The notes under the pieces were generated by a model. It had not been told where the DNA came from. It made no database searches and saw nothing but the letters and a program-made list of their open reading frames with translations. 64,000 nt of DNA. Origin: Eledone cirrhosa. Taxonomy: Eukaryota. The translations under genes and the position numbers were made by a program. The stretch is taken from NCBI GenBank assembly GCA_964016885.1, contig OZ024740.1, positions 391,902,001 to 391,966,000 of the forward strand. The letters are read 5' to 3'. Below, piece by piece: positions 6,371-48,950 of this stretch; position 1 is the first letter of the stretch, and the number at the start of each line of letters is the position of its first letter.

Positions 6371-7583
6371 GGAACAAGTATGACCCTGACGACAGAGCTC
6401 AAGCCGTTTCGACGGCTAGTTCTGGACTAAATAAGAATGTTTTGCCTGGTAAATAAATAGCCGAACTTCTCAGGGGGTAATTTCATATATGGGAAGATAG
6501 TAATTGTCAAAAGGATTGGTCAAACATTTGTTGTAAAGACAGATTGCGTAGGACTTACCTCGCCCTCAAACCCCATAATGACCCGGGAGGGGGGGGGGGG
6601 GGGGTAGACAAGGGCTGAAACACCCCACTTGTCGATTTTGTAAGGGGTAACCCATGCTTACAAAGGTAGACGTAACTTTTTTCTTTTCCTCTATATTTCC
6701 TTCTTCCCCCATCTCTTCCTAGTCCTTCCACCCCAGATCTCCTTCCCTGTCTTTTTTTTCACCTTTTCGCCTACCCCGATGCAGCCCATCGGTCCTCTGT
6801 AGCCTCAGTACCCCCACCCCCACTAATTTTAAGATAGAATTGGCCGATTACGCTTTTTATAGCAGATGTGTTAGACCCCAGTAACTTGTTTTCTTTCTGG
6901 TTGCTGCTCCATTTCTGAGATTTCTAAATTTCTTAGTGGTATTTTTGTATTAGTATTCTTGTATTAGTATTTCTGTATTAGTATTCTGAATTAATATTTC
7001 GTATTAGTATTTTTGTAGTAGTATTTGTAAGTATTTGTAAGTATTTTAGTATTTTTTGTTCTCAACTTATTAACCTGTCATTGTAAGATAGCAATTGGCT
7101 GATTACTAACTAACTATAGCAGTGGTGTTAGACCCCCTGTAAAGCCGGCTTTATCAAATTCTTTCACTACAATCTCGTATTTAGTATTTTTCTCCACCTA
7201 TTAAACTTTTCTATAGCTTAGCAATACCAATGAGAGATTTGGTGATTGTGGAAATGGAGTAGTAACCAGAAATTGTTTTTTATATATTTATTTCCTTATT
7301 TTTATAATGTTTTTTTTGTTTACCCTCTTTCGATTTACCTATTCTTTCAACCCCCCTCCCCTTCTCCAGTACTCTTTTTCGACCTTCTATACACTATCCT
7401 TAGAATCTGGTGTATAGATTTCACTTTCAACGCTTGACTGAGTTTCACCCACTCCCTCGTTGTTCTACCGGCAAGTTCAGCTACCCCTACCTCCCCCCAA
7501 ATGCCATGATAGTATCATCTGTCTTTACAACAAATTTTTTTACCAATCCTTTTGACAATTACTACCTTCCCATATATGGAATT

Positions 7584-7679
7584 ACCCCCTGAGAAGTTCG
7601 GCTATTTATTTACCAGGCTAAAAATTCTTATTTAGTCCAGAATTAGCCGTCGAAACGGCTTGAGCTCTGCCGTCCGGGT
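7584..7679 (+). ncRNA. Type-I hammerhead ribozyme, family A (variant core CUGAGAAG)
   Basis: ACCCC-CTGAGAAG-tt-CGGCTA...TAGCCG-tC-GAAA-CGGC-ttgagctct-GCCG-TC-CGGGT; stems I-III pair, GUC triplet at 7672-7674. Copies at 6383-6478 (-) and 10591-10686 (+, GAAA>GTAA). Confidence 0.7.
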
Positions 7680-7864
7680 CATACTTGTTCCTGTTACCCA
7701 CTCTACTACCCTAAGTATTGAGTACTTTGGTGCGTTATGGTCCATCTGGTTCCTTACCACATTTCCTTCGTTATCTAGCTCCTATCTCCGTAGTAGAGCA
7801 CTTTCCGACCCTACCACGCCTTATTTAGACTTTTCCGCCAAGCTCAAGTTTTTTCACCCGCACC

Positions 7865-9850
7865 ATGCGAAAACACATCGACTTCTCCACCAAGAACATC
7901 CCAGTTCCACCGAGAAAACTTTATCTTCGGATGCTCATGCAAAAAATCGACCTCTTTGCGAAAAGACTAAGATGGAGAACTTTTTTCTACGACAGATATT
8001 GCGACAATCAGGACTTCGATACCAAGGAGAGATTCGGATTTAATACCTACAAATCTCCCCCTCCGAACCCTATGCTCTCACCCTTTGAGAATGACCTTTT
8101 CCAACTGGTCAAGAGCATTAAATTCAAATCCAGACACAACAGATTCCTACAAAAACTCCGTAGCAAATTAACAGAGTATGAAAACACCAACGACATCATG
8201 GTGCACTCGGACAAAACTGGACACCTCTACTTTGTCAACCCCGACAGATACCACACACTGATCAGGAGCAGCCTGAACTCCACCTATAAAAAGGCTAACC
8301 ATTCAAGTATCGAGGACATAAATCGAGATGGACAACAGATTACCTCCAGCCTCGGGGTCGCCGACCGCACTGAACTCCTACACCCACGGACTCCCTACTT
8401 CACACTGAAGGACCAAAAATCCGACTTCGACCGTAAACCATCCATCAGGCTTATAAACCCAACGAAGTCCGACATAGGGAGAACCAGTAAAAAAAAATCC
8501 AAGACAGCGTTATACCAAAAATTAAGAAAATCGCGAGACTTAGCCTATGGGTCAACACCCAGGAAGAAATCTCATGGTTCAGCAATATGGAGAACAACCG
8601 AGACACAAAATTCATCCAGTTTGACATAGAGAGTTACTATGCATCAATTACCTTACGCACCTTACGGCCGCCTTGGACTTTACCGAAACACTCACGCCCA
8701 TCACCGACCAGGAAAGAAATATCATCCTCCACGCCAGGAAGACAGTCCTACTTTTCGACAACTCCAAATGGATAAAGAGAGCTCCTGACTCCCCCTTCGA
8801 CGTCAGTATGGGCGCGACGGATTCGGCTGAGGTCACAGATCTTATAGGCTTATTCCTACTATTTAAACTCACCGAAATGTTTCCTGCATTCGGCGGTGGA
8901 TTGTACCGTGATGATGGGCTCCTTACCCTCAAAGGGTACAACCCCAGTAGTATAGACCGGGTCCGTAAACAATTAATTAGCTTCTTCCGCGACTGGGGAT
9001 TTAAAATAACCCTACAAACGTCCCTAACCCGAGTAAACTTCCTGGACGTTACCCTTAACCTCGATAATGATCTGTACTACCCATACAGGAAAACAAACGA
9101 CAACCTGCATTACATCCACCGCCGGTCGAACCATCCTAGAAACATCACCAATAACCTGGTTAAAAACATCTCCCTCCGCATATCTCGTTTGTCCGCTAAT
9201 GAGCAGATATTCGACGAACATGCGCCTTATTACAACCAGGCCCTCAAGCGGAGTGGCTTCCAGGAGGAAATATCCTATTATCCAGCTTCCATTAGCGGAA
9301 CCAGCTGGCGACACCGCCGCTCACTCAACGTAACGTGGTTCAATCCTCCCCCACAATGCCGAGGTGACAACACCTATCGGGAAAATCTTCTTTAGGCTCA
9401 TCGAAAAACACTTCACTACAACACCGCTACCACAACATATCAACAAAAACACCATCAAACTCTCCTACAGCACCACACCTAACTTCGCACAAAACAACGT
9501 CTCCTCTAACAACAAAAAACTCAACTTTTATGGAAGAAATAACCTAGACAGCAGTGGTGAGCCGACCAGGAAGTGTAACTGTCCTGATAGATCCCTCCCC
9601 CCCTCTCAACAACAGATGCCGAGATCGTAATGTAATCTACCAGTGCAACGAGAGGACGGACACCTCCAACAAAGTTTATATAGGATTAACCGCCTGTGAC
9701 TTCAAGACCCGGCTCTACCTACACCGACATACTTTCCGAAACCCGGCCCGGTGTCATGCCACTACACTTTCGGGCCACATCTGAGACCTCAAAGATAATA
9801 ATATAACCTACAATCTCACTTGGAGCTTACTGCATGCAATCACAGATTGC
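7865..9850 (+). pseudogene. PLE-A reverse transcriptase + GIY-YIG endonuclease, frameshifted
   Basis: FSTKNIP N-terminal motif, SDKTG, RLINPTKSDIG, FIQFDIESYY, FDVSMGA.DSAE, GLYRDDGL, NFLDVTL, SNHP, CNC..., NVIYQC..KVYIGLT..FKTR; several frameshifts (one at the A-run ~8489-8497) and TGA at a Trp position (~9782). Confidence 0.92.
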
Positions 9851-47738: not shown

Positions 47739-47760
47739 AATATATATATATATTCAATTT

Positions 47761-48476
47761 GTCCAGCTGTCTAAATGTAATGTTATTACTCTAAGGTAAA
47801 ATACCTTATTGAGTGCTTAGCTGCACATTCCGATTGCATTCGTTAGCTTAGCTGCAGCCAGAGCTTCGATTCTACTGAACTTCCATTTGTATTATTATCT
47901 CCTAGACTTAAGGATTAATTAATTAATTTAATTAGACAATTCTATTGATTGGTTAATTATTTATGTTTGTTTAATAACATCTGGTCGAGAGCTTTATTCG
48001 GTTTGTGGAAAGGAATTTATTCCTTTGTTCAAAATTTGAATTTCGACCGCCAAAACCTCCCTTTGGTAAAACAACGTGACCGCCAGCAGTCTTACTGCTA
48101 TAACTCACACCCGAACGCGGCATTGAACGGAAACCTGTTGAGAAAGTAAACCCTCTGTTCGATCATCCAAAGCCAATAACTTGCATACCCCGCAAGTGGA
48201 TTTGTTGATTTCGGATTTCACAGAAACCTACCGGAGATATTGTATAATATCGACGGGATGGTCCAGGTTTGTCAAATTATCCTGAGTTGGTTTTCTCGTT
48301 GCTTTGGTCCTTGCAGCTGGCTTACCGGTCGCAATCTTCAATCCGTCAAGCTGTCTAAACGTAATGTTTTTACTCTAAGGTAAAATACCTTATTGAGTGC
48401 TTAGGTGTACATTCCGATTGTATTCGTTAGCTTGGCTGCAGCCAGAGCTTCGATTATACTGAACTTCCATTTGTAT
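47761..48476. mobile_element. Small element with ~130 bp terminal direct repeats
   Basis: ~47761-47892 repeated at ~48345-48476; (TA)n on both sides; ~450 bp non-coding interior. Confidence 0.65.
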
Positions 48477-48491
48477 ATATATATATATATA

Positions 48492-48950
48492 TATAAACAA
48501 ATAGTAAAAAGGAAGAAAATACCGTAGAAAATGCTGGAGGGATTTTTTCAGTATAATATAAAAACATTTATTTATAACGTGGGGATTTCCGCATTTAATC
48601 GTGGTACCGGTTTCAGCATTATATGCTTTTTCAACGACGGAAGTGTAAAGTGCAGTTAAATTGCATATTTATACGAATAATAATAAAATGGAGAAGAAAA
48701 ATTATTAGTTTTTACATGGATATCTAAAAAGGAAAGTTCATGTTTCTGTCCGAGGCAGAGAGCGAAAGAGAGTCTCGGACGGACAGAAACATGAACTTTC
48801 CTCACTAAATATGTATGTAAAAACTAATAATTTTTCTTCTCCATTTTATTATTATTCGTATAAATATGCAATTTAACTGCACTTTACACTTCCGTCGTTG
48901 AAAAGGCATATAATGCTAAAACATTTTTCTTTTTTACTATTTGTTTATAT
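48492..48950 (-). mobile_element. Fold-back non-coding element family I with U3-A8 hammerhead variant
   Basis: ~48612-48752 inverted at ~48780-48920, plus terminal taaacaaatagtaaaaa/tttttactatttgttta; motif at 48600-48639 (-): CGTCG-TTGAAAA-AGCAT-ata-ATGCT-GAAAC-CG-GT-A-CCACG. Confidence 0.65.

What the first reader, a model, noticed from the sequence alone, without database searches (positions are those of the whole stretch)
6371..48950. About nine different hammerhead families in 43 kb, all in PLE-type or fold-back elements
Seen: independent type-I folds with unrelated stems at 7584, 16019, 16487, 18858 (and relatives 12119/36447), 27865, 36025, 46328, 47212 and 48600. Most have a very short stem III with a palindromic cap (ACGATCGT, ATGCGCAT, ACATGT, ACCGGT, ATATATAT). 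Known: PLE pseudo-LTRs carry minimal type-I HHRs proposed to cleave as dimers through palindromic loop 3. Inference: this genome hosts a diverse ribozyme-bearing retroelement community, probably unannotated because repeat pipelines do not call HHRs.
Basis: partly seen in the sequence, partly recalled or inferred. Interest (0 to 1): 0.8.

Follow-up and report, generated by a model that had tools for sequence, protein, structure and literature searches.

The report
Hammerhead-rich Penelope retroelements with ADAR fossil
The window holds the repeated ends of several jumping-gene families (Penelope-like elements), each carrying a predicted self-cutting hammerhead RNA, a known pairing that is unusually dense in this animal genome, and one family carries a hairpin whose A-to-G changes were likely made by RNA editing and then copied back into DNA.

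Summary
A strict type-I hammerhead descriptor finds 9 cores against 0.36 in shuffles, and 9 more copies have variant or broken cores. Eight of the nine families trace to Penelope-like elements with a C-terminal GIY-YIG nuclease (six Hydra-clade, one of them tentative); 48600 has no parent found. This is the known PLE pseudo-LTR hammerhead. The window is not special: the genome holds 84,935 exact matches for one superfamily alone (control 2) and an estimated 180,000-230,000 strict motifs, more than any count I read in print. Corrections: 27865 and 47212 are related, only 5 of 9 stems III are palindromes, and most copies are 5'-truncated relics in divergent pairs that cannot form a cis dimer. 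Two extras matter more than the finding itself. A subfamily with a mismatched C3-A8 core reached 344 matches. And 14630-14805 belongs to a 21-copy lineage carrying a hammerhead fold-back in which all 32 arm-to-arm mismatches are A-to-G on one strand, confined to the duplex, with ADAR's neighbour bias: likely RNA editing made heritable by retrotransposition. No cleavage or expression data were available.

The parts
6370..7255 (-). Inverted, 5'-truncated copy of the 7584-family element; hammerhead core starts 6473, cleavage base 6388, element ends 17 nt later in (TA)n
7533..7774 (+). Upstream pseudo-LTR with hammerhead (core 7589 CUGAGAA, C3-A8 mismatch; 5-bp stem III; site GUC 7674)
7829..9395 (+). 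Hydra-clade PLE reverse transcriptase in two frames (break near 8625)
   Evidence: compared by eye with Hydra-1_Obim
10540..10781 (+). Downstream pseudo-LTR; hammerhead with broken core (GUAA)
12120..12165 (+). Decayed relative of the 18858/36447 hammerhead (GAAG, weak stem I)
14318..14632 (-). Inverted arm of the 16019-family insertion (100% identical to 15921-16235), hammerhead core 14524
14630..14805 (+). A-to-G hypermutated 3' half of a 47212-type hammerhead end (GAAA core reads GAGG); truncated member of a 21-copy lineage, nested in the 3' region of a 16019-family element
15921..16370 (+). 3' end of the 16019-family element with hammerhead (core 16029, 115-nt stem II, palindrome ACGATCGT, site 16162) and tail; parent RT is Hydra-type
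16437..18129 (-). 3' part of a very young Hydra-clade PLE: nuclease ORF 17092-18129 and hammerhead (core 16594, site 16491)
18594..18720 (.). Fold-back made of two 3' halves of the 7584-family hammerhead; no 5' core, so not a ribozyme
18714..23314 (-). PLE with RT, CxxC linker and C-terminal GIY-YIG (Neptune/Nematis type) and tandem pseudo-LTRs; hammerhead cores 22774 and 18896, the only intact same-sense pair in the window
25117..28128 (.). Hydra-clade insertion: nuclease ORF 26443-27336 (-), divergent hammerheads 25426 (-) and 27873 (+), palindrome ATGCGCAT
36025..36145 (+). Hammerhead (core 36029, stem III ACATGTGT, site GUC 36094); link to a Hydra nuclease in 1 of 20 sites, tentative
36157..36696 (.). 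Fold-back insertion of the 36447 family; hammerhead core 36452 (+), weak stem I
44960..46594 (.). PLE 3' end with GIY-YIG ORF 45279-45920 (+) and divergent minimal hammerheads 45195 (-) and 46333 (+), core CCGAAGA (U4C), stem III AAUU
46576..47410 (.). Divergent pair of the most abundant family, hammerheads 46682 (-) and 47220 (+); parent is Hydra-clade
48490..48950 (-). Fold-back insertion with a U3-A8 minimal hammerhead candidate (core 48634, palindrome ACCGGT, C-C mismatch in stem I); no parent ORF found

Best explanation
These are the 3' ends (pseudo-LTRs) of about eight Penelope-like retrotransposon families inserted into (TA)n microsatellites, each carrying a conserved type-I hammerhead fold that is predicted to cleave only in transcripts of the few full-length source copies, while most genomic copies are likely passive relics. 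Shown: the folds, their covariation, their place 0.2-1.9 kb behind C-terminal GIY-YIG ORFs (further for 16019), the two alternative 3' ends 17-70 and 100-210 nt past the cleavage base, and the divergent inverted pairs. Inferred: a source element is transcribed as pLTR-ORF-pLTR; the RT-nuclease nicks (TA)n and starts reverse transcription downstream of the hammerhead on RNA that is uncleaved there (as shown for the anole PLE); a second, inverted and truncated copy is laid next to the first. Selection keeps the hammerhead in the source lineages, probably to trim or circularise the precursor with help from the element's protein or a second copy, but cleavage is not needed in every round. When a divergent pair is transcribed through, it forms a long hairpin that ADAR edits; one such edited hairpin sat in the 3' UTR of a 16019-family source element and was copied back into DNA at about 16 loci.
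For: 9 cores vs 0.36 by shuffle. Covariation in the 47212 family collected by homology, not by descriptor: 97.0% of 560 cells paired, 33 cells changed on both sides vs 9.6 shuffled (0/500), slid controls 39-52%. Position 7 varies while 8 stays A in 91 of 100 listed copies of an older 7584 subfamily (counted by eye). ORF links: (784-aa ORF between two same-sense 16487 hammerheads in L288; 821-aa ORF before a 27865-type hammerhead in L281; Hydra RT and nuclease behind 47212-type ends in L272-L276 and L038). Every copy extends past the cleavage base. 15 of 21 neighbour pairs divergent. Frangieh 2024 (PMC11167929): internal RT start, hammerhead mutants still insert, cleavage needs the protein. C3-A8 subfamily: 344 exact matches vs 3,377 for U3-A8 sisters. 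Editing: 32 of 32 arm mismatches A-to-G on one strand; 0 of 9 A's after G and 1 of 10 after C changed vs 31 of 67 after A or U, Fisher p=0.0009.
Against: No cleavage assay and no RNA data. Only 13 of 129 sampled hammerheads have a same-strand PLE ORF remnant within 3 kb vs 29 of 600 control positions, so the ORF link rests on the longer copies. 36025 is linked by one locus with about 550 nt not shown continuous; 48600 has no parent. Clade calls are by eye, without a tree. Stem I and stem III show almost no two-sided change within the tested family (1 of 8 and 0 of 3 pairs). Four families depart from the canonical fold.
Confidence: 0.85

Rival explanations
1. The hammerheads belong to non-autonomous retrozyme-like or fold-back (MITE-like) elements that spread as small circular RNAs, independent of the PLE ORFs next to them.
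For: Most copies have no ORF nearby; many are short hairpins (18594-18720); animal retrozymes carry type-I hammerheads (PMC7229834) and are proposed to derive from PLE pseudo-LTRs (bioRxiv 10.64898/2026.07.22.740005).
Against: No tandem arrays of 170-400 nt units in the window; arm lengths vary from tens of bases to kilobases and the long ones run into RT/nuclease ORFs; hairpins often lack the 5' core. One sampled family with 466-467 nt tandem spacing (L068, L071) may be a true retrozyme but is not in this window.
Confidence: 0.07
2. The motifs are kept as a protein-binding or RT-positioning fold and no longer cleave.
For: A C3-A8 subfamily multiplied to 344 matches; non-canonical closing pairs in 16019 and 16487; hammerhead mutants insert normally in vitro and no reads ended at the site in anole (PMC11167929).
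Against: The 3-8 pair switches between C-G and U-A across families, which preserves a catalytic contact (U3-A8 reported active, PMC3088659); catalytic bases are invariant across stem-II variants.
Confidence: 0.12
3. For the A-to-G lineage only: the changes arose at DNA level or by RT error, not by ADAR on RNA.
For: No RNA was seen; the lineage is rare (0 of 473 inverted-repeat pairs and 1 of 704 binned alignments); AT-rich sequence offers many A's.
Against: Both arms carry A-to-G on the same strand at different positions, with T-to-C 0 in the inverted arm of the 15 complete copies; no shared A-to-G in the 77-nt spacer or 85-nt tail; 5'-neighbour bias as ADAR's (preference recalled). APOBEC gives G-to-A (PMC4866542).
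Confidence: 0.06

Closest known systems
Minimal type-I hammerheads in PLE pseudo-LTRs (Cervera & de la Pena 2014, PMC4209133)
   Same: Type-I topology, short often palindromic helix III, long helix II, many sequence families per genome, mostly truncated or opposite-strand pairs, U3-A8 core variant.
   Different: Scale: about 60-76 strict motifs per Mb here; that paper reports about 9,000 in Xenopus tropicalis and 4,000 in coelacanth. One family has a 5-bp stem III, one subfamily a C3-A8 mismatch.
Hydra-clade PLEs (Craig et al. 2021, PMC8557442, Files S1, S2, S4)
   Same: RT motifs, C-terminal GIY-YIG, (TA)n insertion, inverted 5'-truncated partner, tail extension, hammerhead in every member, non-Watson-Crick pair next to the core.
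   Different: Stem II up to 115 nt and 3' UTRs of 0.6 to over 3 kb; published Hydra hammerheads in File S2 all have a C3-G8 core.
Anole Poseidon PAc (Frangieh et al. 2024, PMC11167929)
   Same: Two RT start sites downstream of the hammerhead that explain the two 3' ends.
   Different: Different clade; the offsets here vary by family.
Non-LTR retrozymes (PMC7229834; axolotl 126,247 motifs, Acropora >6,000 in 16 families)
   Same: Type-I hammerheads at high copy number in an animal genome.
   Different: Here dispersed PLE ends, not tandem non-coding units; count likely higher than axolotl in a far smaller genome (axolotl about 32 Gb, listing).
APOBEC-edited retroelement copies (PMC4866542, PMC2873906)
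   Same: Deaminase footprints fixed in genomic copies of a retroelement.
   Different: Those are G-to-A made on cDNA in vertebrate LTR elements; this is A-to-G on both arms of an RNA hairpin in an invertebrate-type PLE.

Membership tests
Type-I hammerhead ribozyme | Core CUGANGA and GAAA around three stems, NUH site | tested here: met
   9 strict cores in 5 families; U3-A8 or U4C variants are known natural forms (PMC3088659, PMC4209133)
Type-I hammerhead ribozyme | Watson-Crick pair between positions 3 and 8 | tested here: not met
   Not met for the 7584 subfamily only (C3-A8); met in its sisters and the other eight families
Type-I hammerhead ribozyme | Stem covariation | tested here: met
   47212 family, 28 distinct rows: stem II 5 of 9 pairs with two-sided change; other families not tested with the tool
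Type-I hammerhead ribozyme | Self-cleavage at the predicted site | not testable with these tools
   No assay; no RNA holder listed
Penelope-like element, EN+ | PLE-type RT with C-terminal GIY-YIG upstream of the motif | tested here: met
   for eight families (16019: RT only; 36025: one locus); none found for 48600
Penelope-like element, EN+ | Pseudo-LTR tandems, inverted 5'-truncated partner, optional tail, (TA)n target | tested here: met
Hydra clade | Clade-specific RT and nuclease sequence; monophyly with published Hydra elements | tested here: inconclusive
   Close motif match by eye with Hydra-1_Obim and Penelope-2_HM; no tree built
Naiad PLE | N-terminal nuclease, RT at the C-terminus | tested here: not met
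   The U3-A8 family tested lies behind a C-terminal GIY-YIG
Non-LTR retrozyme | Tandem 170-400 nt non-coding units, each with a hammerhead | tested here: not met
   None in the window
ADAR hyper-editing footprint | Clustered A-to-G on one strand in both arms of a duplex, absent outside it, 5'-G avoided | tested here: met
ADAR hyper-editing footprint | Inosine seen in RNA from an unedited DNA template | not testable with these tools
   No RNA run listed

The most novel reading that the evidence does not exclude
This genome carries the largest known load of hammerhead motifs (about 200,000, all from Penelope-like elements), whose inverted pairs are a major ADAR substrate, and a Penelope-like source element has written ADAR editing into the germ line: an edited hammerhead hairpin was retro-copied, re-amplified to about 16 loci and edited further in later rounds (12 of 13 variants shared among copies inside the duplex are A/G). 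Together with a C3-A8 subfamily of 344 copies, the genome is a natural mutant series showing that PLEs move without a working hammerhead.
Probability: 0.55. Interest if true: 0.72.

Novelty: new member of a known kind. Interest (0 to 1): 0.5.

Why it matters
The role of PLE hammerheads is still open (PMC7761336 calls it a mystery; PMC11167929 finds it dispensable in vitro). This genome offers test material: a very young family (40 of 40 top hits 100% identical over 151 nt, with a 784-aa ORF between tandem pseudo-LTRs), U3-A8 and C3-A8 natural variants with copy numbers, and long-stem forms that Rfam misses. The A-to-G lineage is indirect but strong evidence that these elements are transcribed and form double-stranded RNA in the germ line, and a clear case of RNA editing fixed in DNA by a retroelement.

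Tried and rejected
Naiad lead: I suspected that U3-A8 hammerheads belong to Naiads, missed by the published 'cuganga' descriptor; the family tested lies behind a C-terminal GIY-YIG, so rejected. Core lacking N7 as a reading of the 7584 subfamily: rejected, position 7 is U, A or C in an older subfamily while 8 stays A. Widespread hyper-edited copies: not seen (1 of 704 binned alignments, the window's own; 0 of 473 inverted-repeat pairs); hints at L204, L205, L206 did not pass. The DNA search with the 16019 motif found nothing (common words skipped), so that family was counted in the sample instead. Expression: no RNA holder listed; two runs of unknown kind from one sample were laid and say nothing on expression or cleavage. 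One of the 15 multi-member clusters (L037/L216) looks like LINE RT coding sequence and is treated as a false hit. Host taxon: searches with 'octopus' and 'cephalopod' were a guess from the Hydra-clade host list; the host was not determined. Lunse et al. (PMC5785218) and one paper on DNA editing were not held. The 5' end of the edited lineage beyond 1.5 kb was not seen. Searches for prior art on A-to-G edited retrocopies listed none by title or abstract start; most subscription journals are not searched.
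Full report
Setting. The window is G000:C1:391902001-391966000 in a 3.0-Gb assembly. It is AT-rich, full of (TA)n and (CA)n runs, and ends in a 12-bp satellite from 52,464. The host was not determined.

Noticed in passing
window 14630-14805; loci L292-L312: A-to-G hypermutated hammerhead fold-back carried at about 16 loci inside a Hydra-type PLE; likely ADAR editing fixed by retrotransposition.
   Followed up: yes
window 7690-7777, 10695-10781, 18511-18600, 42014-42103; L088:5200-5300: One tail of about 85-90 nt is shared by several diverged 7584-related subfamilies and also occurs without the hammerhead core; a conserved RT-start or nuclease-recognition signal is possible.
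   Followed up: no
L053:6942, L063, L071, L088, L211, L217, L219; L240-L259: An abundant minimal U3-A8 hammerhead family (9 hits in 1.39 Mb) behind a Neptune-type GIY-YIG; same architecture as the 48600 candidate with different stems.
   Followed up: partly
L068:9138-9604; L071:5268-6069: A hammerhead family in tandem at 466-467 nt spacing without nearby (TA)n ends; may be a true non-LTR retrozyme.
   Followed up: no
window 52464-64000: 12-bp satellite (962 units, 92% match) with GC skew near +1.0 that runs to the window end.
   Followed up: no
window 526-744 and at least nine other places (27281-27473, 31206-31380, 32069-32255, 36853-37030, 39635-39755, 42144-42272): A dispersed repeat of about 200 nt at 85-95% identity, SINE-like in size, not examined.
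   Followed up: no
window 12289-12993, 13809-13933, 3300-4157: 3' fragments of LINE-type reverse transcriptases; 12619-12743 is duplicated exactly at 13809-13933.
   Followed up: no
L037:8037, L216:3231: LINE RT coding sequence around the YADD motif passes the hammerhead descriptor; a source of false positives in genome scans.
   Followed up: partly
window 40065-40538: 157-aa ORF fragment with no Pfam match that resembles, from memory, the nuclease end of a site-specific non-LTR element.
   Followed up: no
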